The position numbers were made by a program, and so were the translations under genes. Below the pieces are notes generated by a model, which did no database searches, was not told where the DNA came from, and was given only the letters and a program-made list of their open reading frames with translations. Of a stretch of DNA of 64,000 bases, positions 1-38,848 are shown one piece after another. Source of the stretch: Anaerolineae bacterium (lineage in GTDB: Bacteria; Chloroflexota; Anaerolineae; JACIWP01); contig JAPWUQ010000001.1 of assembly GCA_028275445.1 (NCBI GenBank), positions 3,161-67,160 of the forward strand, given 5' to 3'. Position 1 is the stretch's first letter. The number at the start of each line of letters is the position of its first letter.

Positions 1-582
1 AGGGTCTTTCTGGCCCGGCCGGCTTTCCACGCCGGAGGAAACGTCCACCCCCCAGGGATGGAGCCGGCGCACCGCTTCTGCAACATTATCCGGCGTCAGC
101 CCGCCGGCGATGATGAGCCGCGCCGGCGGTACAGCCGAGAGGTCCATCTCCTCCCACGCCCAACGCTGTCCCGTGCCGCCGGCCCGCTGGGGATGATAGC
201 TGTCCAGCAGATAGGCCCAGGCGTCAAAGCTCAGCAGTTCCTCCCACGGCACCGCGCCCCGCACCCGATGGGCACGGATAACCGGACGGGGCAACGCCCG
301 GGCATAGGCCGGCGGTTCCGCCCCATGCAGTTGCACCAGGTCCAGCCTGCACTGCTCCGCGATCTTCTCGACCTCGGATGCCGGCGCATCGGCGAACACC
401 CCGACGCAGAGCGCCTGACAGCCTTCCCCCCGCAAAGCGTTGATGATGGCGGATGCCTGCGCCGGCGCAATACAGCGCGGGCTGGCCGGCACAAAGATAA
501 AGCCCAGCAGGTCCGCCCCGGCCTGCCAGGCCGTGCGGGCATCATCCAGGTTGGTCAGGCCGCATATTTTGACCTTCACCAT
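1..582 (-). CDS. trpF: Phosphoribosylanthranilate isomerase (TrpF). The C-terminus runs off the window start, so the gene is partial.
   Basis: The reverse complement of 1-582 reads MVKVKICGLTNLDDAR...LIIAGGLTPDNVAEAV...HPWGVDVSSGVESRPGQKDP, typical TrpF motifs. The ATG at 582-580 overlaps the trpC stop by ATGA. Not listed in the ORF track because there is no stop codon inside the window. Confidence 0.8.
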   Translation of the reverse strand, partial: MVKVKICGLTNLDDARTAWQAGADLLGFIFVPASPRCIAPAQASAIINALRGEGCQALCVGVFADAPASEVEKIAEQCRLDLVQLHGAEPPAYARALPRPVIRAHRVRGAVPWEELLSFDAWAYLLDSYHPQRAGGTGQRWAWEEMDLSAVPPARLIIAGGLTPDNVAEAVRRLHPWGVDVSSGVESRPGQKDP

Positions 583-1373
583 TGGCCGGCCTCCCGCAGT
601 TCCCGCAGCCGCGCGCGCGGATCCGGCGCCGTTACCAGCGCCTCGCCGACGAGTGCCGCCTGCACCCCCCACTCTGCCAGCCGGCGCATATCCGCCGGCG
701 TGCGGATCCCGCTCTCCGCCACCACTATCACTTCCGCCGGGATCATGGGGCGGAGCCGGCGCGTCGTCTCCAGGTCCACGTGAAAATCGCGGAGGTCCCG
801 GTTGTTGATGCCCACCACGCTGGGATGCAGGGACAGGACGCGCCTCAGCTCCTCCTCGTTGTGCACCTCCACCAGAGGCGTCAGGCCCAGCGCCTGCGCC
901 TGGCGGTAGAGCGTCTGCAATGATTCATTCGGCAGGGCGGCGGCGATCAGCAGGACGGCATCCGCGCCGGCCAGGCGCGCTTCCAGGAGCTGATAGGTGT
1001 CAATGATGAAGTCCTTGCGCAGGATGGGAACAGCCAGGCCGGCGCTGTCCAGAACCAGGCGCACCCGCTGTAGGTCTTCCAATGCGCCGTGAAAATGATG
1101 CGGCTCGGTCAGCACCGAGATGGCGGCGGCGCCGGCGCTGGCGTATGCCGCGGCCAGCTCCGCCGGCTGAAGGTCCATGTTGAGCGCGCCGCGGGAAGGC
1201 GAGGCGCGCTTGATTTCGGCGATGATCTGCACCCCCGGGCCCCGCAGTGCCCGGGAAAAATCGCGGGCCGGCGGCGCCCCCGACAGTCTCTCCTCCAACA
1301 TTTCGATGGGGGCATATTCCTGGCGCCGGCGCAGTTCCCGACGGGTATCCTCCAAAATCCGCTCCAGGATCAT
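576..1373 (-). CDS. trpC: Indole-3-glycerol phosphate synthase
   Basis: 265 aa. Contains IIAEIKRASPS...ILRKDFIID...LVEVHNEEEL, a conserved IGPS signature. Its start overlaps the trpGD stop by ATGA. Confidence 0.9.
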   Translation of the reverse strand: MILERILEDTRRELRRRQEYAPIEMLEERLSGAPPARDFSRALRGPGVQIIAEIKRASPSRGALNMDLQPAELAAAYASAGAAAISVLTEPHHFHGALEDLQRVRLVLDSAGLAVPILRKDFIIDTYQLLEARLAGADAVLLIAAALPNESLQTLYRQAQALGLTPLVEVHNEEELRRVLSLHPSVVGINNRDLRDFHVDLETTRRLRPMIPAEVIVVAESGIRTPADMRRLAEWGVQAALVGEALVTAPDPRARLRELREAGQW

Positions 1374-2986
1374 CGTGCCCCTCCGGTAAAGCGCACCAGC
1401 TCCTCCAGCACCCTGGCGGCGCGCCCCGCATCAATGGACTCGGCGGCCATGGCAATGCCCTCTTTGAGGTCCCGCGCCGCGCCGGCCACGTGCAGAGCGG
1501 CGCCGGCATTCAGCAGGACCACATCGCGGCGCGGCCCGCGCTCGCCGGCCAGGACGGCGCGGGCAATGCGGGCATTCTCTTCCGGATCGCCGCCGCGCAG
1601 GGCCTCCAGCGGCGCCGGCGTCAGCCCCAGCGCCTCGCCGGCCAGCTCATACGTGCGCACCACCCCATCGCGCAGGCAGGCGATGAAGTTGATGCCGGCG
1701 GTGCACAGCTCATCCATGCCCTGTGAATTATGCACCACATAGGCCGCACTGGCGCCCAGCTCTCGCAGGACATGGGCGATCACTTCCACCAGCTCCGGGG
1801 CATACACCCCGATAATCTGAAGGGACGCGCCGGCGGGATTGGTCAGCGGCCCCAGGATGTTGAACACGGTGCGCACCCCCATTTCGCGGCGCGGCCCAAT
1901 GGCGTGCTTCATGGCCGGATGCAGAAGGGGCGCGAACAGGAACCCAAACCCGACCTCGTCAATACAGCGCGCCACCTCCTCCGGACTCAGCTCCAGGTTC
2001 ACGCCCAGGGCCTTCAGCACATCGGCACTGCCGCAGCGGCTGGACACGGAGCGGTTGCCGTGTTTGGCGACCGCCACGCCGGCGCCGGCGACCACGAATG
2101 CCGCTGTGGTGGAGATATTGAAGGTCTCCGCACCATCGCCGCCGGTGCCGCAGGTGTCGATGAGCGGCCGGCGCTGGGGCTGGACGCGCGCCGCATAGCC
2201 GCGCATGGCGCGGGCAAAGCCGGCGATCTCGCTGATGGTCTCCCCTTTGGCGCGCAGAGCCGCCAGGAAGGCGCCGATCTGCGCCGGCGTGGCCTGGCCG
2301 GCCATGATGATGCCCATCACCTGCTCCGCTTCCTCGCCGCTGAGATGCTCGCCGCGCAGTACCCGCTCGATGGCCGCCGGCATGCTGATGGACACGGCCG
2401 CGCCCTGCTCCTCCACCACGTCGGACAGCCGGAGGAAATTGCGTAGGATGCGCTTGCCGGCCGGCGTGAGGATGGATTCAGGATGAAACTGCACGCCGAA
2501 GGTCGGCCCTTCCGCATGCTGGAGGGCCATGATCTCCCCCTCTTCGGAGCGGGCGGTGACGCGCAGTTCTTTCGGCAGGGGTTCCTCAACAATGAGGGAA
2601 TGGTAGCGCGTGGCCTCGAAGCTGGTGGGCACGCCGGCGAACAGCGGGCCGCCGTAATGGATGATGCGGGAAACCTTGCCGTGCATCAGGCGGGGCGCCG
2701 GCCCCACCCTCCCTCCGAAGACATGGGCGATGCACTGATGCCCCAGGCACACCCCCAGGACAGGAATACGGCCGTGAAAGCGGCGGATGGCGTCGTTGGA
2801 GATGCCGGCGTCGGTCTCCGGCCGGCCGGGCCCTGGTGAAATCACCAGATGGCTGGGCGCCAACTGCTCCAGCTCCTGCAGGGTCACCTGGTCATTGCGG
2901 AACACCCGCACCTCTGCCCCCAATTCGCCCAGGTACTGGACGATATTGTACGTGAATGAGTCGTAGTTATCGATCACCGCGATCAT
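1370..2986 (-). CDS. trpGD: Bifunctional anthranilate synthase component II (glutamine amidotransferase) / anthranilate phosphoribosyltransferase (TrpG-TrpD fusion)
   Basis: 538 aa. The N-terminal half is a class-I GATase (MIAVIDNYDSFTYNIVQYL...GVCLGHQ...FHPES). The C-terminal half is TrpD (CGTGGDGAETFNISTTAAFVVAGAGVAVAKHGNRSVSSRCGSADVLKALG). AGGGAGG RBS. Sits 13 nt after trpE. Confidence 0.9.
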   Translation of the reverse strand: MIAVIDNYDSFTYNIVQYLGELGAEVRVFRNDQVTLQELEQLAPSHLVISPGPGRPETDAGISNDAIRRFHGRIPVLGVCLGHQCIAHVFGGRVGPAPRLMHGKVSRIIHYGGPLFAGVPTSFEATRYHSLIVEEPLPKELRVTARSEEGEIMALQHAEGPTFGVQFHPESILTPAGKRILRNFLRLSDVVEEQGAAVSISMPAAIERVLRGEHLSGEEAEQVMGIIMAGQATPAQIGAFLAALRAKGETISEIAGFARAMRGYAARVQPQRRPLIDTCGTGGDGAETFNISTTAAFVVAGAGVAVAKHGNRSVSSRCGSADVLKALGVNLELSPEEVARCIDEVGFGFLFAPLLHPAMKHAIGPRREMGVRTVFNILGPLTNPAGASLQIIGVYAPELVEVIAHVLRELGASAAYVVHNSQGMDELCTAGINFIACLRDGVVRTYELAGEALGLTPAPLEALRGGDPEENARIARAVLAGERGPRRDVVLLNAGAALHVAGAARDLKEGIAMAAESIDAGRAARVLEELVRFTGGAR

Positions 2987-2998
2987 GTTCCACCTCCC

Positions 2999-4474
2999 TT
3001 ACTTCATGGGGCCCTGTTCGGCGGCGGTCAGGGCACGCGCAAGGGCCCGCAGTTTGTTCTCCGTCTCCTCATATTCCCGCGCCGGCTCCGAATCGGCGAC
3101 GATGCCGGCGCCGGCCTGCAGGTACACCCGCTGTCCCTTCATCACGAATGTGCGGATGGTGATGCAGGTGTCCATATTGCCCGAGAAGCCGAAGTAGCCC
3201 ACCGCGCCGGCGTAAGGCCCGCGCTGTTCCGGCTCCAGCTCCTCGATGATCTCCATCGCGCGCACTTTGGGCGCGCCAGACACCGTGCCGGCGGGGAAAC
3301 AGGCGCGCAGTACGTCATAGGCGTCGCAGGCGGGGTCCAACTGTCCCTGCACATGGGAGACAATGTGCATGACATGGGAATAGCGCTCCACCTCCATCAT
3401 GGTGGGAGTGGTCACTGTGCCGTAGCGGCACACGCGCCCCAGGTCATTGCGCGCCAGGTCCACCAGCATGACGTGTTCCGCGCGTTCCTTGACGTCCGTC
3501 AGCAGTTCCTGCTCCAGCGCCAGGTCTTCCGCCGGCGTGGCGCCGCGGGGCCGTGTGCCGGCCAGCGGCCGCGTCTCCACTATCCCCTGATCCACCCGCA
3601 CCAGCACCTCCGGCGATGAGCCGATGAGGCGCAGGCCGTCCGGCAGTTCCAGGTAGAACATGTACGGCGACGGGTTGATGCGCCGCAGGGCGCGGTAGAT
3701 GTCGAACGGTTGGGCCCTGGTCAGCCGATGAATGCGGCGGGACAGCACCACCTGGAAGATATCGCCGGCGCGGATATACTCCTTGGCGCGCTTCACCGCT
3801 TCCTCAAAGGCTGGGCGCGGGAAGGCGGTCTCGAAGGGCGGCTCCACGGCCTCCGCCGCCGGCGCCGGCATCCCCAGACCGTTCGGCAGGGGCCGGCGCA
3901 GGCGCGCCACCAGCTCCTCCACCGCCGCCTCCGCTTCCTCGCGCCCCCGGCCCTCCGCCTCCTCGCCGGAAGCGTGGGCGATGACCAACAGCCTCTGTCT
4001 GACGTGGTCATATACCACCAGCCGGTCACACAGGAGGAAGAAGGCCTCGGGCAGGCCCAGGGTATCCGGCTTGATGCTGGGCAGGCGTTCGAAGGAGCGC
4101 ACCAGGTCATAGCTCATGTAGCCCACAGCGCCGCCGGTAAAGCGCGGCAGGTCCGGGATGGGGGTGCCGGCATAGGTCGGCAGATGCTCGCGCAGGACAT
4201 CCAGCACATCGCGGCCGGCCAGCGGCAGTTCCGTCCAGCGCCCCTCTTCCTCGATGATCACCCTGTCGCGCCAGGCCTTGATGGTGCCGCGCGGGTGGGA
4301 GCCGATGATGGAATAGCGCGCCAGGTGTTCTCCCCCTTCCACGCTTTCCAGCAGGAAGGAGGGGCCCAGCCCGCGCAGTTTCAGGTATACCGAGACCGGC
4401 GTCTCGACATCCGCCGGCAGTTCCCGCACCACTGGGCTGAGAACCCGCCGTGCATGCGTAATGCTGGTAATCAT
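2999..4474 (-). CDS. trpE: Anthranilate synthase component I
   Basis: 491 aa. Chorismate-binding family motifs (LLESVEGGEHLARYSIIGSHP...GAVGYMSYD...FQVVLSRR...GAPKVRAMEIIEELE...GAVGYFGFSGNMDTCITIRT). Confidence 0.9.
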   Translation of the reverse strand: MITSITHARRVLSPVVRELPADVETPVSVYLKLRGLGPSFLLESVEGGEHLARYSIIGSHPRGTIKAWRDRVIIEEEGRWTELPLAGRDVLDVLREHLPTYAGTPIPDLPRFTGGAVGYMSYDLVRSFERLPSIKPDTLGLPEAFFLLCDRLVVYDHVRQRLLVIAHASGEEAEGRGREEAEAAVEELVARLRRPLPNGLGMPAPAAEAVEPPFETAFPRPAFEEAVKRAKEYIRAGDIFQVVLSRRIHRLTRAQPFDIYRALRRINPSPYMFYLELPDGLRLIGSSPEVLVRVDQGIVETRPLAGTRPRGATPAEDLALEQELLTDVKERAEHVMLVDLARNDLGRVCRYGTVTTPTMMEVERYSHVMHIVSHVQGQLDPACDAYDVLRACFPAGTVSGAPKVRAMEIIEELEPEQRGPYAGAVGYFGFSGNMDTCITIRTFVMKGQRVYLQAGAGIVADSEPAREYEETENKLRALARALTAAEQGPMK

Positions 4475-11317: not shown

Positions 11318-11447
11318 AACGCCAACAGGGGGCCCGGCGTTGGGCCCCCTGTTGGTCGAGGCGAAAGGAGGGAGTACGGGTAATTTTCGATTGGGATGGG
11401 GCTCCCATGCACTGCGAAGCGCACGGCTTCGCTTACCAGGAGACCCC

Positions 11448-11654
11448 TCAGGTACTGCCAGAACTACAGGAACTGCCGGCGGAGAAGCTCGAACTGCTCT
11501 TACTGCCGCCCACCCCGAACAGGGAAAGCGCCTTATGCACGTGCTGGGAGCCGCACTTCGGGCAGGTCACGCCTTTGTCGGCGTTCTGCATGGATTGGAC
11601 GAACTTCTCGAAGCGCTCGTGGCACTCGTCGCACTGATATTCGTAGATCGGCAT
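11448..11654 (-). CDS. FmdB-family zinc-ribbon protein
   Basis: 68 aa. MPIYEYQCDECHERFE...VTCPKCGS is the canonical FmdB CxxC...CxxC ribbon. The C-terminal tail is Ser/Gly-rich. Confidence 0.8.
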   Translation of the reverse strand: MPIYEYQCDECHERFEKFVQSMQNADKGVTCPKCGSQHVHKALSLFGVGGSKSSSSFSAGSSCSSGST

Positions 11655-11680: not shown

Positions 11681-12022
11681 CTAGAAGCGGGCCGGCAGGC
11701 CCTGCCGGCGCCGGTCCTCATCCGCCAGGAAGATAAGCTGATAAGCATCCACGTTGCCGGCGCCGCGCAGTTGGCCGTTCACCAACACCAGCGGGTACGA
11801 GAGCCGCTGGCGTTGGGCCTGTTCCAGCACCTGCTGGAAGCGCTGGCGGGTATCCGGCTGGTCCACGTCGTGGAATTCGACGGACACCTCTTCACCATAG
11901 ATATTCTTCAGGAATTGGCGGGCGATGGCGGTGGTCTCCTCCGAAGACCGCGCCGGCCCTCAACCCCACTGACAGACTTCCTCCGTGCGTGTGCCCAGAA
12001 CCGTGATGTAGGTGTAGACCAT
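11681..12022 (-). CDS. Candidate selenoprotein. A thioredoxin-fold small redox protein, DUF1462/YuzD-like or Rdx-like, with an in-frame TGA (plus-strand 11960-11962) at codon 21.
   Basis: ATG at 12022 with AGGAGG 6 nt upstream. The N-terminus reads MVYTYITVLGTRTEEVCQWG-[TGA]-GPARSSEETTAIARQFLKNIYGEEVSVEFHDVDQ... and the frame stays open for 92 more codons to the stop at 11681. The TGA sits where a Trx-fold places the second redox residue (C-x-x-x-U after beta1, before helix 1). A hairpin GCG-c-GGUCU[UCGGAGG]AGACC-ac-CGC starts 7 nt after the UGA. The ORF track lists only the 3' 68-aa part from a GTG. Confidence 0.45.
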
Positions 12023-12064
12023 GCTGTGCCTCCTCTTGTATACCCTACCAGGGTAGTGCATGCT

Positions 12065-12093
12065 ATTATATCGGGGTGGGGATGGATTGTCAA
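12065..12093 (-). promoter_or_regulatory. Perfect consensus sigma70 promoter (TTGACA-N17-TATAAT) driving the candidate-selenoprotein/FmdB operon
   Basis: The minus strand reads tTTGACAatccatccccaccccgaTATAATagc. Predicted transcription start near 12058, which is 36 nt upstream of the ATG at 12022. Confidence 0.6.
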
Positions 12094-12295: not shown

Positions 12296-13522
12296 TTGAT
12301 ACCGAAGAACTTCCCCGGTCGAGGCAGGGTGGCGGTGCTGAAGACTTCGCCGCAGACAGTGCTCGAGGATTACGCGCGCCTGATGCGTCTGGCCGGCTAC
12401 GAGGAAGCCCTGCCCAAAGATGCAGAGACCATCCTCAAGGTCAACATTTCCTGGCAGACCTGGTACCCGGCCTGTTCCACCGCGCCCTGGCAGTTGGAAG
12501 GGGTGATCCGCACCCTGCTGGCCGACGGATACGCCGGCCTCATCGCCGCCCATAACCGCACCGCAGTGGTGGACGCCTATATCGGCGAGCGCAATAACAA
12601 ACACAAGGACATTATTGACGCCTATGGCGTCCGCAACGTGCACCTGTACGAACCGCATGTCGCCTGGGTGCACTATACCCCCAAGTCCCCCATGCTGGTG
12701 CTGGACAAAATCTTCCCCGAGGGCATCTATATCCCGGAGCTGTTCATCGGCCGCAATATGATTCATCTGCCCACGGTGAAAACCCACGTCTTCACCACCA
12801 TCAGCGGGGCGATGAAGAACGCCTTCGGCGGCCTGCTGGGCGAGAAACGGCACTGGACCCATGGGGTCATTCACGAGACGCTGGTGGACCTGCTTTCCAT
12901 CCAGCATGAGATTCACGCCGGCCTCTTCGCTGTCATGGATGGGACGTTCGCCGGCGACGGGGCCGGCCCCCGCGCCATGCGCTGGCACGAGAAAGATATC
13001 ATCCTCGCCTCTGCCGACCAGGTGGCGATAGATGCCGTATCCGCCAAGCTCCAGGGCTTCGACCCCATGTCCATCCCCTTCATCCGCATCGCCCATGAGA
13101 TGGGGTTGGGGGTGGGTGACCCCCGCGACATCGAGGTGGTAGGATATGATATCTCGGGGGAAAACTGGGGCTTTGTGCTGGAGGATACCCTGGCCAGCCT
13201 CGGCCAAAAGGCCATCTATCAGGGGCCGCTCAAACCGTTCGAAGGGCTACTGCTCCGCACGCCGCTGGCGCCGTGGTCCTTCTTCGCTTCCAAACTGTAT
13301 TACGACGTCTACTGGTACCCACGGGTGGGCCGGCCCAGGGTGGAAGCGGCCCTGCAGACCAGGTGGGGCCGGCTCTTCCAATCCTACGGCAGTGGCGAAG
13401 TGACCATGCCCGGCATGGACACCCGCACGGCGGCGCTGGCCGCCGGCGGCTTAGCCTCGGTACTCCTGCTGACCCTGGCGACGTACGTATACCGCCGGCG
13501 GCAAAAGGGGAAAGGAATCTGA
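12296..13522 (+). CDS. DUF362 domain protein with a C-terminal transmembrane anchor
   Basis: TTG start with GGGAGGG RBS 6 nt upstream. The 5' part of the listed ORF (11771-) overlaps the minus-strand genes and is not coding. The conserved DUF362 core is present (KVNISWQ...HLPTVKTHVFTTISGAMKNAFGGL...IDAVSAKLQGFDP). Hydrophobic C-terminal helix. Confidence 0.7.
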   Translation: MIPKNFPGRGRVAVLKTSPQTVLEDYARLMRLAGYEEALPKDAETILKVNISWQTWYPACSTAPWQLEGVIRTLLADGYAGLIAAHNRTAVVDAYIGERNNKHKDIIDAYGVRNVHLYEPHVAWVHYTPKSPMLVLDKIFPEGIYIPELFIGRNMIHLPTVKTHVFTTISGAMKNAFGGLLGEKRHWTHGVIHETLVDLLSIQHEIHAGLFAVMDGTFAGDGAGPRAMRWHEKDIILASADQVAIDAVSAKLQGFDPMSIPFIRIAHEMGLGVGDPRDIEVVGYDISGENWGFVLEDTLASLGQKAIYQGPLKPFEGLLLRTPLAPWSFFASKLYYDVYWYPRVGRPRVEAALQTRWGRLFQSYGSGEVTMPGMDTRTAALAAGGLASVLLLTLATYVYRRRQKGKGI

Positions 13523-14604: not shown

Positions 14605-14991
14605 ATGATGCGCAGGATCAGGATCACCGCCGGCGGCATCAGCGTGACCGCCGAGCTGAACGATTCCCCGACCGCTGATGCGATCTGGAACGCCCTGCCG
14701 TTGGAGGCACGGGGGAGCACCTGGGGCGATGAAATCTACTTCTCCATCCCCGTGCATCTGCCGCAGGCCAGGGACGCGAAGGAAGTGGTCGAGCTGGGTG
14801 ATCTGGGATACTGGCCGCCGGGGAACGCCTTCTGCATCTTCTATGGGCCGACGCCGGCCAGCCTGGGGAACGAGATCCGGCCGGCCAGCCCAGTCAACGT
14901 CTTCGGCCGCATCGTGGATGACCCGACCGTGTTCCGCAAACTGCGCGGCAGTGTCAACGTGCGGGTGGAGCGCCTGGAAGAGCGGTCTTGA
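14605..14991 (+). CDS. Cyclophilin-like fold protein (DUF3830/TM1367-like)
   Basis: 128 aa. IRITAGGISVTAELNDSPTADAIWNALP...GDLGYWPPGNAFCIFYG matches the conserved pattern of this family. Confidence 0.7.
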   Translation: MMRRIRITAGGISVTAELNDSPTADAIWNALPLEARGSTWGDEIYFSIPVHLPQARDAKEVVELGDLGYWPPGNAFCIFYGPTPASLGNEIRPASPVNVFGRIVDDPTVFRKLRGSVNVRVERLEERS

Positions 14992-15026
14992 CAGACACGG
15001 GGACAATATTTTCACAGGAGGACGCC

Positions 15027-15953
15027 ATGAACAGGGGCTGGGATGGCATTTGCAAGGTGGGCATCGTGCAGTTCATGATCTTCCCCGAGGTGATGCGCGG
15101 GGAGGGGCCGGTGGTGGAGACCATCACGAAGATCGCCGCGGATGACTTCTTCGGCGCCATGGAGATCACCCATATCGCGGACCCGGAGGCGCGCCGGCAA
15201 GTGGCCGGCATCCTCGCCGCCTCGCACATGGCCCTGGGCTTCGGCGCCCAGCCCATGCTCCTCGCGAACAAGCTGGACCTGAACCATCCCGAGGAGGCGG
15301 AGCGGCGCAAAGCGGTGGACCTGATGAAGGCGGCCATAGATGAAGCGGCCGAGCTGGGCATCGGGCGGGTGGCGTTTTTGAGCGGCAAGGACCCCGGCGA
15401 GGCCCAGCGCGAGCGCGCCCTGGACCTGTTGGTGGATTCCACAAAGGAGCTGTGCGAGTACGCCAAAAGCAGGGGTGTGTTCCTGATCTGTGAGACCTTC
15501 GATTATGACGTGGAGAAGCGCGCTCTGATTGGGCCGGCGCGGCTGGCGGCGCGCTATGCCGAGCGGGTGAAAGCGCAGTACGACAACTTCGGCCTGATGT
15601 ATGACTTGAGCCACGTCCCTCAGCTTCGCGAGGACTCGCTGGAAGGGCTGTCCATCCTGAAGCCGCACTTGGCGCACGTGCACGTGGGCAACTGCCAACT
15701 GCGCAACCCGAACCATCCTTCCTACGGCGACCAGCATCCGCGCTTCGGCATCCCCGACGGCGAGAACGATGTCCCCGAGCTGACAGCCTTCCTGAAAGCG
15801 CTGTTCCAGGTGGGGTATCTCCAGGAACATCCGAAGGGAGACCTGCCCGTCGTGGCCTTTGAGGTGAAGCCGATGAAGGGAGAGCTTTCGGAGGTGGTCC
15901 TGGCGAATGCCAAGCGCGTGTGGCGCGAGGCCTGGGGCCGGCTGGAGCTGTAG
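15027..15953 (+). CDS. Sugar phosphate isomerase/epimerase (xylose-isomerase-like TIM barrel) family protein
   Basis: Start placed at the ATG at 15027 with AGGAGGA RBS. TIM-barrel motifs are present (FLICETFDY, HVHVGNCQL...). The listed ORF begins 39 nt earlier and overlaps the previous gene. Confidence 0.8.
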   Translation: MNRGWDGICKVGIVQFMIFPEVMRGEGPVVETITKIAADDFFGAMEITHIADPEARRQVAGILAASHMALGFGAQPMLLANKLDLNHPEEAERRKAVDLMKAAIDEAAELGIGRVAFLSGKDPGEAQRERALDLLVDSTKELCEYAKSRGVFLICETFDYDVEKRALIGPARLAARYAERVKAQYDNFGLMYDLSHVPQLREDSLEGLSILKPHLAHVHVGNCQLRNPNHPSYGDQHPRFGIPDGENDVPELTAFLKALFQVGYLQEHPKGDLPVVAFEVKPMKGELSEVVLANAKRVWREAWGRLEL

Positions 15954-16297: not shown

Positions 16298-17602
16298 ATG
16301 CGAGTAGCAATCGCCTACGGACGCGGAGAGCTGGAGATTGACCTGCCGGACGATGTGCCGGTGCAGGTGATCACGCCGGCGGAGACGCCCGGCCTGCCGG
16401 ACGAACGGGCGGCACTGCTGGAGGCTATGCGGCACCCGATCGGCTGTCCGCCCCTGCGCGAGATCATCCCCGCCGGCGCCCGCGTGGCGGTCGTCTTCAG
16501 CGACATCACCCGCCCCATGCCCAATGACCGCGTCCTGCCGGTCCTGCTGGAGGAGATCGAATCTGCCGGCGCCGGGGAAATCATCCTCATCAACGCGCTG
16601 GGCACGCACCGGCCGAATTCCCCGGAGGAGCTGGAGCGCATGCTGGGCCAGGAGGTCGTCTCCCGCTACCCCATCATCCAGCATGACCCCTTCGCCGAGG
16701 GTGAGCTGAAGTATCTGGGGGAAAGCTCCGTCGGACATCCGCTGTGGGTCAACCGCACGTTCGCCGAGGCGGATGTGCGGATATTGACCGGCTTCATCGA
16801 GCCGCACATGTTCGCCGGCTTCAGCGGAGGGCCGAAAGCGGTGCTGCCGGGCATCGCCGGCGAGCGCACCATCTTGCTCAACCACAGCGCGCCCATGCTG
16901 AGCCATCCTCAGGCCACCTGGGGGGTGACCCGCGGCAATCCCATCTGGGAAGAGATGCTGGAGATGGCGGTGCTGGCCAACCCCGATTTCCTGCTGAACG
17001 TGACGCTGAACGCCCGCCGGGAGATCACCGGCGTCTTCGCCGGCGCCCTACGGCCGGCCCATGCGCGCGGCGTGGCCTTTGCGCGCGAACATGCTATGGT
17101 GCCCGTGCGCCAGCGCTTCGATATCGTCATTACCAGCAACGCCGGCTATCCCCTGGATATGAACGTGTATCAGGCGGTAAAGGGGATGTCGGTGGCCGCC
17201 GAGGTGGTCAAGCCGGGCGGACATATCATCGTTGCCGCCGAGTGCTGGGACGGCGTGCCGGACCACGGCGAGTACAAGCGCCTCCTGCATGCCGGCCGCG
17301 ATCCCGCCCATCTGCTGGAGATGATGAGCCGGCCGGATTTCCTGGTGCGCGACCAATGGGAAGTGGCCATTCAGGCCCGCGTGCAGGTGATGGCGCACGT
17401 GTATCTCAAGTGCTCGTATCTTTCGGACGAAGAGGTGCGCAAGATCCACCTGACGCCCTGTCATGATATCGGGGCGCTGGTGCGAGAGCTGGTGCGGGAA
17501 CTGGGGTCTCCCAGCATCTGCGTACTGCCGCAGGGGCCGTTGGTGGTGCCGTACCTGCCCTCATCCGAGACTTCCCATGCCGCGAAGGGGGTGGAGCCAT
17601 GA
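16298..17602 (+). CDS. larA: LarA-like lactate racemase domain protein (nickel-pincer-cofactor-dependent 2-hydroxyacid racemase/epimerase family)
   Basis: 434 aa. N-terminal DUF2088 and LarA core (ARVAVVFSDITRPMP...GTHRPNS...GFIEPHMFAGFSGGPK...). Confidence 0.85.
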   Translation: MRVAIAYGRGELEIDLPDDVPVQVITPAETPGLPDERAALLEAMRHPIGCPPLREIIPAGARVAVVFSDITRPMPNDRVLPVLLEEIESAGAGEIILINALGTHRPNSPEELERMLGQEVVSRYPIIQHDPFAEGELKYLGESSVGHPLWVNRTFAEADVRILTGFIEPHMFAGFSGGPKAVLPGIAGERTILLNHSAPMLSHPQATWGVTRGNPIWEEMLEMAVLANPDFLLNVTLNARREITGVFAGALRPAHARGVAFAREHAMVPVRQRFDIVITSNAGYPLDMNVYQAVKGMSVAAEVVKPGGHIIVAAECWDGVPDHGEYKRLLHAGRDPAHLLEMMSRPDFLVRDQWEVAIQARVQVMAHVYLKCSYLSDEEVRKIHLTPCHDIGALVRELVRELGSPSICVLPQGPLVVPYLPSSETSHAAKGVEP

Positions 17603-30512: not shown

Positions 30513-32018
30513 ATGACCTTTTCCGCATGGGACAGGAGCACAGGGGAACGGGGCGAAGAGGATTACTACCGCATCCTGGGGGTGGAGGATGACGCCTCGC
30601 AGGAGGAGATTCGCGCCGCGTACCGGGACTTAGTGCGGCAGTATCACCCGGACGCCGGCCTGGTCAAAGGGACAGCCTTCCTCTTCCGCCAGATCCAGCA
30701 GGCCTACGAGACCTTGAGCGACCCACAGCGCCGGCAGGAATACGACGAGCGCCTGCGGCGGGAAGGGAAGCGACCGCCGCGGCTGTTCGCGCTGGATGTC
30801 CTGCCCGGGCCGGCGGAACTGGCCTGCGTGGACGAGCCTCAGCTCCTGTACTTGCTCATCACCCTGACGCCGCTGGCGAACCGCCCCGAGCCTGATACGC
30901 GCCTCAATCTCTGCCTGGTGATTGACTGCAGTACCTCCATGAAGGGGGAGCGGTTGGCCGCTGTGCGGGAGGCCATCCTACACCTGGTGGAGGAAATGCA
31001 GTCCGATGACATACTCTCCTTGGTGGCCTTTTCCGACACTGCGCAGGTGCTCCTGCCCCCACAGCATACCCCGCCGTCGCGCGTCCTGCGGCCCCTTCTG
31101 GCATCCCTGACCGCCGACGGTGGGACGGAGATATTCCAGGGCCTGCAGGCCGGCCTGTCCCTGGTGGGGCACACCCGTTCCGACCACCAAATCAACCATC
31201 TCTTACTGCTCACGGACGGTCACACCTATGGGGACGCGCAGAAGTGCCTGCTGGCAGCGCGATCCGCGGCGCGGCAGGATATCGGCATCTCTGCCTTCGG
31301 CGTCGGCCATGACTGGAACGAGGACTTTTTGGACCATTTGACGGCGGCCGCCGGCGGACAGGTGGTCTTCATCGAAAACCCTGCCGGCATCGGGCGCGCC
31401 TTTCTGGAACATCTGCGCCAACTGAAAGAGGCCTGGATCACCGACCTGACCATGCGGCTGTACTATACGCCGGCCGCCCGCTTCAAGGCGGCCTTTGCCC
31501 TGACACCCGAACTGCGGATGCTGGAGGAGATAGATGGGGAGCTGGCGCTGGGGAGCCTGCAGTATACCCGCCCGCGCCATGTGCTGGTGGAAAGCATCGT
31601 CAGCCCCCTTGAAGAAGGGACGCATCGGGTGCTTCAGGTGGAAGCGGCCAGCATGGCGCCGGCCTACGGCACGCCGGCGGTTCAGCGCAAGGTCGTGCGG
31701 GTGCCCTTCCGCTCCCAGGGCGTCACCCGGCCGTTGATGCCGGCGGCCATCGTGGAAGCGGCCCAGAAGGTCTCCCTGCTCCGGATGCAGAAGCTGATCG
31801 AGGAAGAAGCACGGCAGGGACGGGTGCCGCAGGCCACCACCCTGTTGGAAGGGCTGGCGACCCGTCTGATGCGGGAAGGTCAGGACGAGCTGGCCGGCGT
31901 GCTTATACAGGAGGCGCGCCTGCTGGCGGAGACCGGCCGGCTTTCCCCCGCCGGCGCCAAGCGCTTGCGCTTCGGCACGCGTGCTCTCCAGCCACTGCTC
32001 CCCGGCGGAACAGAGTGA
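30513..32018 (+). CDS. J-domain (DnaJ N-terminal) protein fused to a von Willebrand factor A domain
   Basis: 501 aa. J domain (DYYRILGV...YRDLVRQYHPD). vWA MIDAS motif (VIDCSTSMKGERL...LLLTDGHTYGD). Confidence 0.8.
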   Translation: MTFSAWDRSTGERGEEDYYRILGVEDDASQEEIRAAYRDLVRQYHPDAGLVKGTAFLFRQIQQAYETLSDPQRRQEYDERLRREGKRPPRLFALDVLPGPAELACVDEPQLLYLLITLTPLANRPEPDTRLNLCLVIDCSTSMKGERLAAVREAILHLVEEMQSDDILSLVAFSDTAQVLLPPQHTPPSRVLRPLLASLTADGGTEIFQGLQAGLSLVGHTRSDHQINHLLLLTDGHTYGDAQKCLLAARSAARQDIGISAFGVGHDWNEDFLDHLTAAAGGQVVFIENPAGIGRAFLEHLRQLKEAWITDLTMRLYYTPAARFKAAFALTPELRMLEEIDGELALGSLQYTRPRHVLVESIVSPLEEGTHRVLQVEAASMAPAYGTPAVQRKVVRVPFRSQGVTRPLMPAAIVEAAQKVSLLRMQKLIEEEARQGRVPQATTLLEGLATRLMREGQDELAGVLIQEARLLAETGRLSPAGAKRLRFGTRALQPLLPGGTE

Positions 32019-35949: not shown

Positions 35950-36687
35950 ATGGAGCAGCCAGTCATTGACGTGCGGGATGTGGTGAAGATTTACCGTATG
36001 GGGAGCGTGGAGGTGCCGGCCCTGCGGGGGGTCAGCCTGCAGATCTTCCCTGGCGAGCTGGTGGCCATCATGGGCCCCTCGGGGTCCGGCAAATCCACGC
36101 TGATGAATATCCTGGGCTGTCTGGACCGTCCCACCTCCGGAACCTATTATCTGGATGGGCAGGAGGTCAGCCGGCTGGATGACAACGCGCTGGCCCACAT
36201 CCGCAACAAGAAAATTGGGTTTGTCTTTCAGACCTTCAACCTTCTGCCCCGCCTTTCGGCGCTGGCGAACGTGGAACTGCCCTTGATTTACGCCGGCGTC
36301 ACCAATGGGCGGGAGCGCTGTATCGCCGCGCTGGAGCTGGTGGGGCTGGGCGACCGGATCCATCATCGCCCCAACGAGCTTTCCGGCGGCCAACAGCAGC
36401 GCGTGGCCATTGCCCGCGCCCTGGTCAATGACCCCAGCATCATCCTGGCCGATGAGCCCACTGGCAACCTGGACTCGAAGGCCGGCCGCGAGATTATGCG
36501 CATCTTCCAGCAGTTGAACGCCGAACGCGGCATCACTATCGTGATCGTGACCCATGACGCGGATATCGCCCGGCACACGCGCCGCATCCTGCGCATGCAG
36601 GATGGGTTGATGGTGGCGGACGAACCCGTGGAGAACCCGCGCTGGCTGTTGGAAGAAGAGCCGGCGCCGGCGGCTGTCAGTTCCTGA
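35950..36687 (+). CDS. ABC transporter ATP-binding protein, MacB/LolD-type
   Basis: Walker [13 protein letters not shown] signature [15 protein letters not shown]. Walker [12 protein letters not shown]. Confidence 0.9.
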
Positions 36688-36709
36688 TACCCCGAAGGAG
36701 GAGAGAAAA

Positions 36710-37174
36710 ATGAAACTCACACGCACGGTCCAATATATCATCGCGGCATTAGTGCTCATCATCGTCGCCGGCGGGAGCTTTTACGCCGGCACGCTGTACG
36801 GCAAGAACCAGGCGCAGGCCGCCCTGCGCGCCGCCAGACAGCGGGGCATGCCCTTCGCCCAGGGCACGCCGGGCGCCCGGCAGTTCCAGGGACGCGGCAT
36901 GGTCTTCGGCACCATTGAAGAGGTAGGCAGTGACGGCTCCCTAGTGGTGAAAGATAACAACGGTAATCGGGTGAAGGTGCGGGTCACCGACACCACTCTC
37001 ATCGAGAAGACCATATCGGCGGCGCCGGCGGACCTGCAGAGCGGTGAAGCGGTCATGATCTCCGGTACCAGCGAGCAGGACGGCAGTATCACGGCGCGTT
37101 CAGTGCAGGTTGTGCCGGCGGGCCGGCTGGGCTTCGGCGCTCCCGGCGCTCCGGGTACCGCCGGCGGACAATAA
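36710..37174 (+). CDS. Small membrane-anchored DUF5666-like protein
   Basis: 154 aa. N-terminal transmembrane helix. Repeated G(T/S)V.(E/S)V....L.V... motifs. GAAGGAGG RBS. Confidence 0.55.
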   Translation: MKLTRTVQYIIAALVLIIVAGGSFYAGTLYGKNQAQAALRAARQRGMPFAQGTPGARQFQGRGMVFGTIEEVGSDGSLVVKDNNGNRVKVRVTDTTLIEKTISAAPADLQSGEAVMISGTSEQDGSITARSVQVVPAGRLGFGAPGAPGTAGGQ

Positions 37175-37186
37175 GGAGCGTGGGAG

Positions 37187-38848
37187 ATGAAGCGCGGAGC
37201 GGTCCGGGCATTATGGATCGTGGGATTAGTGATCCTGCTGGGGGCCGGCGGGTTCTGGTTCTATCAGAGCCGGGCAGCATCGCAGGGCACCAGCAGTTCC
37301 ACCTCCAGCGGCACCTACACCCAGATCGTCGAGGTGACCCGCGGCGACCTGACGGCAACGGTGAGCGTGGTAGGCCAGCTCCAGGCGGTGCGCCAGGTGG
37401 AGATGACCTTCGAGCACATGAGCGGGACGGCGGAGCTGAAGGAATTGAACGTGAAGGTGGGGCAGGAGGTCAAGGCCGGCGACCTGCTGGCCGCCATCGA
37501 CCCCACCCCCTACCAGCAGGCGCTGGAGGAAGCCCAGGCCGCCCTCCAGGCGGCCGAGGAAACGCTCAAAGACCTGGAGACCCCCCCGACCGAGCTGGAG
37601 ATCGCCCAGGCCGACCTGGCCGTCGCCAAGGCCCAGGTCCAGCTCGAACAGGCCAGGGCCAAGCTGGAGGATCTACTCCATCCGGATATCGCCGAGCTGG
37701 AGACCAAACTGGCGCAGGCGAAGACCAGCCTGGCCCAGGCGCAGGATAACCTGGCCTCCCTGCAGCAGCAGGAATCATCCTTTAAAGACAAGCTCCAGAA
37801 GCTTCTGGATGCCGAGGCCAAGGCCTATGACCAGTACAGCCGGCTGGCGAGCGAACAGTACTCCGACGAGTACCACCAGGACCGCCTGCAGTTGGCGCTG
37901 AACAAATTCTTGGACGCCCAAGACGCCCGCATCACCGCCGAGATACAGCGGCAGATCGACCTGCTGAAGGCACAGCTCCAGGTTATCCAGGCGGAGCAGT
38001 CGGTGGCGGATGCGGAGGAGGCGTTGGCGGAGGCGCGCGCCGGCGGCGATGCGGTGGCGGTAGCCCAAGCCCGGGTGGCGGTGCAGGAGGCAGAGGTGGC
38101 CCTGCAGAAGGCCCAGCAGGACCGCGACGACCTGACGAAAGGGCCGGATGAGACAAAGCTGGCAACCGCCCGGGCGGATGTGGAGAAGAAGCGGCTGGCG
38201 TTCCAGGACGCCCAGCAGGCGCTGGAGGGCACCAAGCTGGTGGCGCCGTTCGACGGCACGGTGCTGGCCGTGAACGTAAGCGCCGGGGACCGGGTCTCCC
38301 CCAACACGGTGGTCCTGGTGCTGGCCGACCTGCGGGAGCTGGAGGTGGTGGCCTCGGTGGATGAAACAGCCATCCGCCAGGTGCAGGCAGGCCAGCCGGC
38401 GGTGATCACCTTCGACGCCCTCCCCGGCAAGGAGTTCCAGGGCCAGGTGAAGGAGGTGCCCCTGCAGGGCCAACTCCAGGGAGGCGTCACCGTGTATGCC
38501 GTCCCCATCACCCTGGAGGGGGCGGAGGGACAGCCCCTGCTGGTGGGCATGACCGCGAACGTGGTCATCCAGGTGGGGCAGGTGAAGAATGCCCTGCTGG
38601 TGCCGGCGCTGGCCCTGCAGAGGGTGAGCGGGGCCTATCAGGTGCTGGTGGACGCCGGGAACGGTGAGACGGTGGCAGTGCCGGTGGAGGTGGGCTTGAG
38701 CGATGGGACGTACACCCAGATCGTGCGCGGGCTGAACGAGGGCGACCGCGTGGTGGTGCAGATGACCGCCGGCCAGTCCAATCTCTTCGGACAGCTTCGG
38801 GGCATGATGGGCGGCATGATGGGCTTCACCGGCTCGCGGATGAGGTAA
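37187..38848 (+). CDS. HlyD-family membrane-fusion (periplasmic adaptor) protein, copy 1
   Basis: 553 aa. N-terminal transmembrane segment. Long coiled-coil (QQALEEAQAALQAAEE...). C-terminal beta-barrel domains (VVASVDETAI...AVITFDALPGKEFQGQV...) typical of MacA/HlyD adaptors. Confidence 0.85.
   Translation: MKRGAVRALWIVGLVILLGAGGFWFYQSRAASQGTSSSTSSGTYTQIVEVTRGDLTATVSVVGQLQAVRQVEMTFEHMSGTAELKELNVKVGQEVKAGDLLAAIDPTPYQQALEEAQAALQAAEETLKDLETPPTELEIAQADLAVAKAQVQLEQARAKLEDLLHPDIAELETKLAQAKTSLAQAQDNLASLQQQESSFKDKLQKLLDAEAKAYDQYSRLASEQYSDEYHQDRLQLALNKFLDAQDARITAEIQRQIDLLKAQLQVIQAEQSVADAEEALAEARAGGDAVAVAQARVAVQEAEVALQKAQQDRDDLTKGPDETKLATARADVEKKRLAFQDAQQALEGTKLVAPFDGTVLAVNVSAGDRVSPNTVVLVLADLRELEVVASVDETAIRQVQAGQPAVITFDALPGKEFQGQVKEVPLQGQLQGGVTVYAVPITLEGAEGQPLLVGMTANVVIQVGQVKNALLVPALALQRVSGAYQVLVDAGNGETVAVPVEVGLSDGTYTQIVRGLNEGDRVVVQMTAGQSNLFGQLRGMMGGMMGFTGSRMR

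What the first reader, a model, noticed from the sequence alone, without database searches (positions are those of the whole stretch)
11681..12093. Candidate selenoprotein: a thioredoxin-fold ORF with an in-frame UGA at the redox position, a SECIS-like hairpin and a perfect promoter
A strong AGGAGG-ATG start at 12022 opens a frame that hits TGA at codon 21 (plus-strand 11960-11962) and then continues for 92 more sense codons to 11681. The ORF track reported only the 3' 68-aa fragment. The read-through product is MVYTYITVLGTRTEEVCQWG-U-GPARSSEETTAIARQF...VSVEFHDVDQ...YPLVLVNGQLRGAGNVDAYQLIFLADE. That is a beta1 / C-x-x-x-U / alpha1 / beta2 arrangement. It places the UGA exactly where thiol-disulfide oxidoreductases carry their second redox residue, and Cys-to-Sec swaps are common there. 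A hairpin GCG-c-GGUCU[UCGGAGG]AGACC-ac-CGC starts 7 nt after the UGA, which is compatible with a bacterial SECIS. The gene is first in a two-gene operon with an FmdB zinc-ribbon gene. It is driven by a perfect TTGACA-N17-TATAAT promoter. The alternatives are a recent nonsense mutation or pseudogene, or a 20-codon upstream ORF followed by a GTG-initiated downstream protein.
Basis: partly seen in the sequence, partly recalled or inferred. Interest (0 to 1): 0.75.

Follow-up and report, generated by a model that had tools for sequence, protein, structure and literature searches.

The report
Uncatalogued thioredoxin-fold selenoprotein gene
A small gene in an uncultured Anaerolineae bacterium is read through an internal UGA stop codon, almost certainly as selenocysteine, and it belongs to a large, misannotated Chloroflexi family of thioredoxin-like redox proteins that I did not find in the selenoprotein catalogue I could read.

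Summary
The selenoprotein reading is strongly supported.

- **Conservation of the UGA.** The UGA at codon 21 is kept in all 12 independent assemblies of this species and its relatives. Substitutions on both sides of it are almost all synonymous in this frame.
- **Family.** The read-through product hits Pfam DUF1462 (YuzD) above threshold. Full-length homologues carry Cys exactly at the UGA position (C-x3-C-G against C-x3-U-G).
- **Other lineages.** Distant homologues found by protein similarity also have TGA there. Two database entries that show Trp at that position are mistranslated TGA.
- **Hairpin.** A 17-nt hairpin (7 bp, triloop G-[G/U]-N) sits 17 nt after the UGA and meets the published bacterial SECIS rules. 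A metagenome scan that allowed TGA, TGC or TGT before this hairpin returned 120 of 120 TGA, spanning about 40 protein clusters.
- **Divergent clades.** They keep the same register with changed but still paired stems.
- **Neighbours.** In 23 related loci the adjacent gene is a second TGA-containing gene of a known selenoprotein family (U-x-x-C). Thioredoxin-system genes are common neighbours.

Not shown: selA, selB, selD or tRNA-Sec in the source genome. None lies in the window. The family is absent from a 2026 list of 119 prokaryotic selenoprotein families.

The parts
12065..12093 (-). Sigma-70-type promoter: TTGACA (12093-12088), 17-nt spacer, TATAAT (12070-12065)
   Evidence: Scores 12 of 12 in the consensus scan. 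Both hexamers are invariant in six related contigs while the spacer varies. Function is inferred, not shown.
12039..12055 (-). Conserved palindrome TACC-NN-GGTA followed by GGTATA, between the -10 box and the ribosome-binding site. It may be an operator or a 5'-UTR element.
   Evidence: The TACC and GGTA arms and the GGTATA are invariant in six relatives. The two central bases and the surrounding positions vary. Its role is unknown.
12029..12034 (-). Shine-Dalgarno AGGAGG, 6 nt before the ATG
   Evidence: Read directly from the sequence. GGAGG is invariant in relatives.
11681..12022 (-). Complete coding sequence of the 113-residue DUF1462/YuzD-like protein (Met1 ... Cys17 ... Sec21 ... Phe113, TAG stop)
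   Evidence: Translation. Pfam PF07315 gives 29.3 bits against a cutoff of 25 over residues 13-93, with U replaced by C. Variable sites by codon position.
11963..12022 (-). N-terminal 20 codons (beta-1 strand YTYITVLG and Cys17 at 11974-11972). Gene callers miss this segment.
   Evidence: Across six relatives, 11 of 13 variable sites are at third codon positions. 11 codons vary only synonymously and one changes the amino acid. The peptide is identical in 11 of 12 contigs and differs by one residue in the twelfth.
11960..11962 (-). In-frame UGA, proposed selenocysteine codon 21
   Evidence: TGA in all 12 contigs of this species group. TGA in L021, L022, L023, L144, L145 and L146. TGA in 120 of 120 metagenomic matches. 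Cys at this column in the full-length Cys forms.
11933..11949 (-). Core SECIS hairpin GGUCUUC-GGA-GGAGACC. The stem starts 10 nt after the UGA and the triloop starts 17 nt after it.
   Evidence: Fold. No variable site in its six codons among relatives. The same sequence is found in lineages 36-50% identical to the window protein, including L021, which is visibly A+T-richer around the gene. The second loop position is only G or U. Pairs are kept in divergent clades, including two double changes. It meets the published bSECIS rules.
11448..11654 (-). FmdB-family zinc-ribbon gene (CxxC...CxxC), 26 nt downstream with its own GGAGG. Second gene of the operon.
   Evidence: TIGR02605 60.4 bits and PF09723 57.4 bits. 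The same arrangement is seen in L001-L012 and L022. It lies just downstream in 26 of the 81 family loci that have enough sequence.
11322..11355 (.). G+C-rich inverted repeat (two 16-nt arms, 15 of 16 pairs, 2-nt loop) between the convergent FmdB and peptidase M14 genes. Probable transcription stop for the operon.
   Evidence: Seen as a spurious Rfam mir-3923 hairpin match and in the sequence. There is only a weak T-run, so terminator function is inferred.

Best explanation
This is a bona fide selenoprotein gene. From the promoter at 12093-12065 a bicistronic mRNA is made that encodes the DUF1462-like protein and then an FmdB zinc ribbon. Translation starts at the ATG at 12022. At UGA codon 21, the hairpin GGUCUUC-GGA-GGAGACC lies 10 nt downstream, with its loop 17 nt after the UGA. 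I infer that it is bound through its apical G-G/U loop by SelB carrying Sec-tRNA(Sec), and that selenocysteine is inserted instead of termination. The product is a 113-residue thioredoxin-fold protein of the DUF1462/YuzD family, structurally close to ArsD. Cys17 and Sec21 (C-x3-U-G-P) lie in the flexible loop between strand beta-1 and helix alpha-1, where thioredoxins carry CxxC and ArsD carries its thiol ligands. The most likely chemistry is a reversible Cys-Sec selenenylsulfide, which would make the protein a thiol/selenol oxidoreductase fed by the thioredoxin system.

Shown: the conserved UGA, coding constraint on both sides, Cys/UGA pairing, the conserved hairpin that occurs only with TGA, and the fold of a homologue. 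Inferred: SelB binding, actual Sec insertion, and the redox role and its partners.
For: 1. The UGA is not an error or a recent mutation. All 12 independent contigs keep it, including two relatives whose proteins are 86-88% identical.

2. Both flanks are coding in one frame. In ATG..TGA, 11 of 13 variable sites are at third codon positions. In TGA..GTG, 8 of 11 are. There is no ATG, GTG or TTG between the UGA and the GTG 25 codons later.

3. Family membership. PF07315 scores above its gathering threshold, and the match spans the UGA. The best PDB sequence hit is 1xg8.

4. Cys/UGA pairing. P0011, P0027, P0030, P0032, P0036 and P0040 have C-x3-C-G aligned with C-x3-U-G. P0023 and P0037 also have Cys at that column. 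So do P0041-P0049.

5. Independent lineages found by protein similarity have TGA at the same column: L021, L022, L023, L144, L145 and L146. The 'W' in the database proteins P0006 and P0061 is a TGA in the DNA ('translates_to_query: no').

6. Coupling of hairpin and TGA. The pattern TG[ACT]GGNCCNNNNCGGTCTTCGNNGGAGACC gave at least 120 metagenomic stretches. All 120 have TGA and none has TGC or TGT. They cover 95 unique proteins in about 40 clusters at 60% identity, with a median identity to the window protein of 36%.

7. SECIS rules (PMC13188914). The loop is 3 nt, the stem 7 bp, the spacing 17 nt, and the loop is G-[G|U]-N. At the unconstrained second loop position there are 55 G, 18 U, 0 A and 0 C.

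8. Structure is kept in divergent clades. Seven pairs are 100% paired in 22 sequences. Two pairs show changes on both sides (G-C to U-G, U-A to C-G) and two show one-sided changes that keep pairing.

9. [quoted passage not shown]

10. Related contigs look Sec-decoding. In 23 of 77 loci with room upstream, the adjacent gene is a Thioredoxin_2-like protein with TGA in ...EFYSNT-U-x-x-C. It has its own hairpin CCCAUC-GU[G/C]-GAUGGG, with the loop starting 27 nt after the UGA. This family is already listed as a selenoprotein.

11. Context and fold. Common neighbours are TrxA, a TrxB-like reductase and a two-domain Trx/Grx protein. The AlphaFold model of Cys homologue P0030 (pLDDT 81) has a beta-alpha-beta-alpha-beta-beta-alpha fold with the CxxxC in the beta1-alpha1 loop. 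Its best PDB fold matches are 1xg8, thioredoxins and ArsD.
Against: - No selA, selB, selD or tRNA-Sec gene is in the 64-kb window. No other candidate selenoprotein gene is there either. The rest of the source genome (MAG CALIBQ01) could not be read, so the Sec-decoding trait is unproven for this organism.
- No Rfam family matches the hairpin.
- The folding energy of the 66-nt stretch is not exceptional for this G+C content (z = -1.5). The 17-nt core alone folds at -7.4 kcal/mol, just short of the -7.5 rule; with one more base it reaches -7.7.
- The covariation rests on few independent events. The large metagenomic set cannot show covariation in the stem, because the stem was fixed by the search pattern.
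- One family member (L013) has the hairpin but no UGA in the 25 nt available upstream.
- There is no experimental evidence of selenium incorporation.
Confidence: 0.85

Rival explanations
1. The UGA is decoded without the Sec pathway. This could be hairpin-stimulated near-cognate read-through, for example by tRNA-Trp. It could also be insertion of Cys or Ser by an unusual tRNA(Sec)-like tRNA. The product would be a full-length protein without selenium.
For: Sec machinery is not demonstrated for this genome. Two public database entries show Trp at this position. Established knowledge, not tested here: UGA is the leakiest stop codon in bacteria.
Against: The 'Trp' entries are TGA in the DNA, translated with another genetic code. 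No true homologue has Trp there; all full-length forms have Cys. The hairpin matches the SelB-type SECIS geometry and its G-[G/U]-N loop. Related contigs carry a second UGA gene at the U-x-x-C site of a known selenoprotein family. TGA is an ordinary stop for many genes in this window, for example the FmdB gene.
Confidence: 0.08
2. There are two separate translation products: a 20-residue leader peptide ending at the UGA, and a downstream protein started at GTG 11887 (68 aa). The hairpin would act as a regulatory or coupling structure.
For: Gene callers annotate only the 61-81-aa C-terminal fragment in every database. A GTG exists at 11887.
Against: The 24 codons between the UGA and the GTG have no start codon, yet they evolve as coding sequence (8 of 11 variable sites at third positions). 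They encode the conserved GPxRSSxETT...YG segment, which is helix alpha-1 in the fold model of the homologue. The Pfam match begins at residue 13, upstream of the UGA. Cys-form homologues are single uninterrupted proteins of 108-124 aa. The 68-aa fragment would lack strand beta-1, the active-site loop and most of alpha-1 of the thioredoxin fold.
Confidence: 0.03
3. It is a pseudogene, a recent nonsense mutation, or a sequencing or assembly error at TGA.
For: None beyond the presence of the stop codon itself.
Against: The same TGA is present in 12 independent assemblies from different samples. It is also present in more than 120 metagenomic loci down to about 30% protein identity, with purifying selection on both sides.
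Confidence: 0.01

Closest known systems
DUF1462 / YuzD family (Pfam PF07315; structure 1xg8, S. aureus SA0798; B. subtilis YuzD, named a disulfide oxidoreductase by annotators)
   Same: The Pfam score is above threshold over residues 13-93. 1xg8 is the best PDB sequence hit and the best fold hit. The size is similar, and both have a thioredoxin-like fold with a Cys motif after beta-1 and a shared YPL(V/I)..(N/D)G block. IMG already names the truncated fragment 'disulfide oxidoreductase YuzD'.
   Different: Identity to Bacillaceae YuzD loci is only about 28-35%. The second active-site residue is encoded by UGA followed by a SECIS, the motif is C-x(0-4)-U-G-P, and the host is Chloroflexota. No selenoprotein form of this Pfam family appears in the 2026 catalogue.
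ArsD arsenic metallochaperone (Pfam PF06953; structures 3kgk, 3mwh, 3ktb)
   Same: The fold is thioredoxin-like, with thiols in a flexible beta1-alpha1 loop. ArsD structures are among the top fold matches. One Cys-form subclade (CCSSGCCGP) carries precomputed PF06953 hits.
   Different: The window protein gives no PF06953 hit at E <= 10. It has only Cys17 and Sec21, not the Cys12-Cys13-Cys18 triad of ArsD (recalled from the literature). No ars genes are adjacent; the neighbours are thioredoxin-system genes.
Thioredoxin-fold bacterial selenoproteins with CxxU or UxxC motifs (Sec-containing Trx, Grx, thiol:disulfide interchange protein PF13098, Thioredoxin_3 'Sec.1/Sec.2')
   Same: The logic is the same: Sec replaces one Cys of a redox pair at the N-terminus of alpha-1, Cys-containing homologues exist, and the SECIS lies directly after the UGA inside the coding region. 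A PF13098-type U-x-x-C gene sits next to this family in 23 loci.
   Different: The Pfam family is different. The Cys-Sec spacing is variable and longer, with 3 intervening residues in 54 loci and 4 in 34. There is an invariant U-G-P and an almost invariant hairpin sequence.
E. coli fdhF-type bacterial SECIS (minimal 17-nt SelB-binding hairpin; consensus bSECIS model)
   Same: It is a short hairpin inside the coding region, with its stem starting 10 nt after the UGA. The size is 17 nt. The apical loop begins with G followed by G or U. It meets all four published constraints.
   Different: The stem sequence is different, there is no bulged U, and the loop is a triloop. SelB binding has not been tested. 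No Rfam model matches.

Membership tests
Bacterial selenoprotein gene (Sec-UGA plus bSECIS) | The in-frame UGA is conserved in orthologues and distant homologues | tested here: met
   12 of 12 close contigs. Six lineages found by protein similarity. 120 of 120 metagenomic matches.
Bacterial selenoprotein gene (Sec-UGA plus bSECIS) | There is protein-coding constraint in the same frame on both sides of the UGA | tested here: met
   Third-position bias is 11 of 13 variable sites upstream and 8 of 11 between the UGA and the GTG. The N-terminal ..V(L/F)G(N/H)...C.. motif and the GPxRSSxETT motif are conserved family-wide.
Bacterial selenoprotein gene (Sec-UGA plus bSECIS) | Homologues have Cys aligned with the UGA | tested here: met
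   Cys at the aligned column in P0011, P0023, P0027, P0030, P0032, P0036, P0037 and P0040, and in P0041-P0049.
Bacterial selenoprotein gene (Sec-UGA plus bSECIS) | The bSECIS model is met: 3-9 nt apical loop, 4-16 bp upper stem, G in the first two loop positions, 16-37 nt from UGA to loop, MFE <= -7.5 kcal/mol (PMC13188914) | tested here: met
   The loop is GGA (3 nt), the stem is 7 bp and the spacing is 17 nt. The family's loops are G-[G/U]-N. The MFE is -7.4 for the 17-nt core, -7.7 with one more base, and -25.9 for the 66-nt context, so the energy criterion is borderline for the core alone.
Bacterial selenoprotein gene (Sec-UGA plus bSECIS) | selA, selB, selD and tRNA-Sec are present in the same genome | not testable with these tools
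   None is in the 64-kb window. The other contigs of MAG CALIBQ01 could not be fetched. Indirect support only: related contigs carry a second UGA gene of a known selenoprotein family.
Bacterial selenoprotein gene (Sec-UGA plus bSECIS) | Selenium is incorporated into the polypeptide | not testable with these tools
   This needs 75Se labelling or mass spectrometry.
Pfam DUF1462 / YuzD (PF07315) | The HMM score is at or above the gathering threshold | tested here: met
   29.3 bits against a cutoff of 25, E = 1.1e-6, residues 13-93 on profile positions 5-85 of 93, with U written as C.
Pfam DUF1462 / YuzD (PF07315) | Thioredoxin-like fold with the Cys motif between beta-1 and alpha-1 | tested here: met
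   Tested on Cys homologue P0030, not on the window protein itself. The AlphaFold model has pLDDT 81 and a beta-alpha-beta-alpha-beta-beta-alpha fold, with CxxxC in the loop at residues 17-28. The top Foldseek hit is 1xg8.
ArsD metallochaperone (PF06953) | Pfam match and the three-Cys metalloid site (Cys12, Cys13, Cys18 in E. coli R773 ArsD; recalled) | tested here: not met
   There is no PF06953 hit at E <= 10. Only Cys17 and Sec21 are present. The resemblance is in fold only.
Catalogued prokaryotic selenoprotein families (119 in Table 1 of PMC13188914, 2026) | The family, its Pfam or NCBIfam identifier, or its motif is listed | tested here: not met
   PF07315, PF06953, DUF1462, YuzD, ArsD and CxxxU are all absent from the text and table. 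There is no NCBIfam hit above noise. They are also absent from the BSepDB, deep-Sep and 2022 review main texts.
FmdB zinc-ribbon family (TIGR02605) - downstream gene | HMM score above cutoff and two CxxC pairs | tested here: met
   60.4 bits against a cutoff of 31.3. CDEC and CPKC are in the sequence. This is the Cys form, not the UxxU selenoprotein form listed.

The most novel reading that the evidence does not exclude
The family is not a simple disulfide oxidoreductase. It would be an ArsD-like carrier in which the flexible Cys...Sec-Gly-Pro loop binds selenium, a metalloid or a soft metal. It would hand that ligand to partners such as the FmdB zinc ribbon, DUF362/ferredoxin proteins or thioredoxin-system proteins. 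It would then be a new, Chloroflexota-wide selenoprotein chaperone class. Its almost invariant 17-nt SECIS also defines the SelB recognition element of this phylum.
Probability: 0.15. Interest if true: 0.65.

Novelty: new member of a known kind. Interest (0 to 1): 0.5.

Why it matters
If the reading is right, it has four consequences.

- **Annotation.** Public databases hold this abundant Chloroflexota protein only as 61-81-residue fragments called 'hypothetical protein' or 'YuzD', or as products with a false Trp at the UGA.
- **Catalogue.** It would add a selenoprotein family (DUF1462/YuzD-like, C-x(0-4)-U-G-P) to the roughly 119 already listed.
- **SECIS model.** It gives a compact SECIS that is conserved at the nucleotide level. 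This would be useful for finding other Sec genes in Anaerolineae and relatives, and for studying SelB recognition outside Proteobacteria and Firmicutes.
- **Function of DUF1462.** It ties a domain of unknown function to the thioredoxin system through gene neighbourhood.

It does not change the concept of how Sec is decoded.

Tried and rejected
- **Rfam.** A search of the region at E <= 10 and of the whole window at gathering scores found no SECIS, tRNA or other real match.
- **ARAGORN.** The single call, a 92-nt 'tRNA-Ala', lies inside a coding region and has no Rfam support, so I treat it as a false positive.
- **Outer stem.** Over 106 unique sequences, extension of the stem is no better than with permuted partners (2.06 against 1.99 +/- 0.07 bp), so I dropped it.
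- **Trp at the UGA position.** I took it seriously until the DNA showed TGA.
- **Sec machinery.** Pfam scans of about 40 window ORFs found no SelA, SelB or SelD. ARAGORN on all loci found no tRNA-Sec. This is uninformative about whole genomes.
- **Other selenoprotein candidates in the window.** A scan for in-frame TGA between coding-like segments found only adjacent genes that happen to share a frame.
- The full read-through sequence could not be submitted to the representative search or the structure predictor. I therefore searched with the 92 residues after the UGA and modelled a Cys homologue.
- **Supplements and DNA.** BSepDB supplements are not held. DNA for P0031 and for one P0023 contig was unavailable.
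- **Hairpin elsewhere.** A near-match to the hairpin at 31364-31380 (2 mismatches) is compatible with chance.
Full report
**Observation.** All coordinates below are on the minus strand.
- The sequence reads TTGACA (12093-12088), a 17-nt spacer, then TATAAT (12070-12065). AGGAGG follows at 12034-12029 and ATG at 12022.
- Twenty sense codons encode MVYTYITVLGTRTEEVCQWG. TGA follows at 11962-11960, then 92 more sense codons and TAG at 11683-11681.
- The mechanical ORF list shows only the GTG-initiated 68-aa tail.
- An FmdB-type zinc-ribbon gene follows 26 nt later.

**Is the UGA real and old?**
- A word-indexed protein search found only three clusters, all called as 66-68-aa fragments.
- I fetched their contigs. 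They gave 12 independent assemblies from different samples, including two relatives whose proteins are 86-88% identical. Every one has the TGA, and the 20-residue N-terminal peptide is essentially unchanged.
- In a six-sequence DNA alignment, 11 of 13 variable sites upstream of the TGA are at third codon positions. Between the TGA and the GTG, 8 of 11 are. That segment contains no start codon.
- The six codons that form the hairpin have no variable site at all. In the rest of the gene, 33 of 68 codons vary.
- This excludes a sequencing error, a recent nonsense mutation and the 'leader peptide plus GTG protein' model. The ribosome must translate across the UGA.

**What protein is it?**
- With U written as C, the product matches Pfam DUF1462 (YuzD) above the gathering threshold, and the match spans the UGA.
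- An exhaustive phmmer search with the 92 residues after the UGA found 38 relatives.
- The full-length ones (108-124 aa) carry C-x3-C-G aligned exactly with the window's C-x3-U-G. Two subtypes (CLISGCG, CCSSGCCGP) also place Cys at that column.
- Most other hits are 61-92-aa proteins that begin just after that column. This suggested they were truncated calls of further UGA genes.
- The DNA confirmed this for every case I could fetch with upstream sequence: L021, L022, L023, L144, L145 and L146.
- Two database proteins (P0006, P0061) show Trp at the position. Their DNA reads TGA, and the look-up tool flags that the gene does not translate to the stored product. They were therefore called with another genetic code.
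- The source organism is an uncultured Anaerolineae MAG (CALIBQ010000057.1).

**The hairpin.**
- The minimum-energy fold is a 7-bp stem GGUCUUC/GGAGACC closed by a GGA triloop. The stem starts 10 nt after the UGA and the loop starts 17 nt after it.
- The same 17 nt occur in lineages only 36-50% identical in protein, including L021, which is visibly A+T-richer around the gene.
- I scanned JGI metagenomes for TG[A/C/T] GGN CCN NNN CGG TCT TCG NNG GAG ACC. This deliberately allowed Cys codons.
- They encode 95 distinct proteins in about 40 clusters at 60% identity. The median identity to the window protein is 36%. A Cys lies 0-4 residues upstream of the UGA in all but one.
- At the two loop positions left free in the pattern, the first is only G (55) or U (18), while the second can be any base.
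- This matches the published bacterial SECIS consensus: a 3-9 nt loop, a 4-16 bp stem, G followed by G or U at the start of the loop, and 16-37 nt between the UGA and the loop (PMC13188914).
- Two divergent clades keep the same register with different stems: GGUCUCC-GGA-GGAGAUC and CUGCCUUC-GGC-GAAGGCGG.
- On a 22-sequence alignment, the seven core pairs are 100% paired. Two pairs changed on both sides and two changed on one side while keeping the pair. These are few independent events, so the covariation is supportive rather than decisive.

**Do these organisms use Sec?**
- The window contains no selA, selB, selD or tRNA-Sec, and no second candidate selenoprotein. I could not read the rest of the MAG. 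This is the main gap.
- Indirect evidence comes from related contigs. In 23 of 77 non-redundant loci with room upstream, the adjacent gene is a membrane-anchored Thioredoxin_2-like protein with TGA in ...VVEFYSNT-U-x-x-C-L.... [quoted passage not shown]
- That gene has its own hairpin, CCCAUC-GU[G/C]-GAUGGG, with the loop starting 27 nt after the UGA. One A-U pair is replaced by G-C in five sequences.
- So two unrelated genes on the same contigs each have a UGA at a redox position, followed by a short stem with a G-U/G-N triloop. This is hard to explain without a Sec system.

**Function.**
- An AlphaFold model of Cys homologue P0030 (pLDDT 81) has a beta-alpha-beta-alpha-beta-beta-alpha thioredoxin fold. 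The CxxxC motif lies in a low-confidence loop between beta-1 and alpha-1.
- The best PDB fold matches are 1xg8 (S. aureus DUF1462), thioredoxins and ArsD. The best sequence match is also 1xg8.
- Across 110 non-redundant Sec-form loci, the frequent same-strand neighbours are a CoA-binding protein (27), the Trx_2-like U-x-x-C protein (23), a two-domain Thioredoxin_3/glutaredoxin protein (21), thioredoxin (18) and a TrxB-like reductase (11). FmdB lies just downstream in 26 of 81 loci with room.
- I therefore favour a Cys17-Sec21 selenenylsulfide redox protein linked to the thioredoxin system. An ArsD-like ligand-carrier role is the less likely alternative.

**Novelty.**
- A 2026 review tabulates 119 prokaryotic selenoprotein families with domain identifiers and motifs. 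It lists no DUF1462, YuzD or ArsD-like family and no C-x3-U motif. It does list the FmdB family as UxxU.
- The BSepDB and deep-Sep papers and a 2022 review do not mention the family in their main texts. NCBIfam has no model for it.
- Public databases hold only fragments, named 'hypothetical protein' or 'YuzD'.
- Within the literature I could search, this is an uncatalogued family of a very well-known kind: a thioredoxin-fold selenoprotein with a canonical bacterial SECIS. I cannot exclude a description in papers outside the held library.

**Verdict.**
- My confidence that this UGA encodes selenocysteine is about 0.85. The remainder is mostly the untested Sec machinery in this MAG.
- Interest is moderate. 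The result is a useful correction to annotation and a new family with a clean SECIS, but not a new mechanism.

Noticed in passing
L024-L143 (e.g. L135, L031, L078): gene immediately upstream of the DUF1462-like gene: A membrane-anchored Thioredoxin_2-like gene has an in-frame TGA in ...VVEFYSNT-U-x-x-C-L... It also has a conserved hairpin CCCAUC-GU[G/C]-GAUGGG, with the loop starting 27 nt after the UGA. It is present in 23 of 77 loci with room upstream. Gene callers report only its 75-aa C-terminal part. It is a second selenoprotein gene on the same contigs.
   Followed up: partly
window 12039-12055 (minus strand): The palindrome TACC-NN-GGTA followed by GGTATA lies between the -10 box and the Shine-Dalgarno sequence. 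Its arms are invariant in six relatives while the central and neighbouring bases vary. It may be an operator for an unknown regulator.
   Followed up: partly
L021 (P0006) and L144 (P0061): Public protein entries show Trp at the Sec position, but the DNA has TGA. These short contigs were evidently called with a genetic code that reads TGA as Trp, which hides the recoding event.
   Followed up: yes
L013:1-60: One family member has the exact hairpin CGGTCTTCGGAGGAGACC but no TGA before it. An in-frame TAA lies 9 codons upstream, right at the contig end. Another frame reads TGT..TGT. It could be a frameshift, a chimeric assembly or a truncated copy; it remains unexplained.
   Followed up: partly
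window 12338-13522 (+); L145:9702-11492; L149:309-870: A DUF362 gene is divergently adjacent to the window gene. In a distant clade of the family, the DUF1462-like gene sits between a small 4Fe-4S ferredoxin gene and a DUF362-ferredoxin gene on the same strand. This may be a functional link.
   Followed up: partly
window 15207-15298 (minus strand): ARAGORN calls a 92-nt 'tRNA-Ala(cgc)' with the anticodon at position 33. It lies inside the ORF 14988-15953 (xylose-isomerase-like TIM barrel) and has no Rfam tRNA match. It is almost certainly a false positive. The same kind of call appears in L025 and L087.
   Followed up: partly
window 37187-38848 and 38864-40531: Two tandem HlyD-type membrane-fusion genes are 95% identical in protein and 97% identical in DNA. 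They lie inside a MacB-type ABC efflux operon (35950-41770), which is followed by a two-component system (42322-44347). This is either a recent tandem duplication or an assembly artefact.
   Followed up: partly
window 11322-11355: A G+C-rich inverted repeat (two 16-nt arms, 15 of 16 pairs, 2-nt loop: CCAACAGGGGGCCCGG..TTGGGCCCCCTGTTGG) lies between the convergent FmdB and peptidase M14 genes. Rfam reports it as a spurious miRNA hit. It is probably a bidirectional terminator.
   Followed up: partly
window 11448-11654: The downstream FmdB zinc-ribbon protein belongs to a family that is itself listed as a selenoprotein family (UxxU) in marine metagenomes. Here it is the all-Cys form, CDEC...CPKC.
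   Followed up: no
window 16298-17602 and 52753-54039: There are two LarA-like (lactate racemase N- and C-domain) genes. The second lies in a cluster with two FAD-linked oxidase genes and a 4Fe-4S protein (51799-56904).
   Followed up: no
window 576-4474 (minus strand): A tryptophan biosynthesis cluster: trpC-like IGPS, a fused glutamine amidotransferase/anthranilate phosphoribosyltransferase, and anthranilate synthase component I.
   Followed up: no
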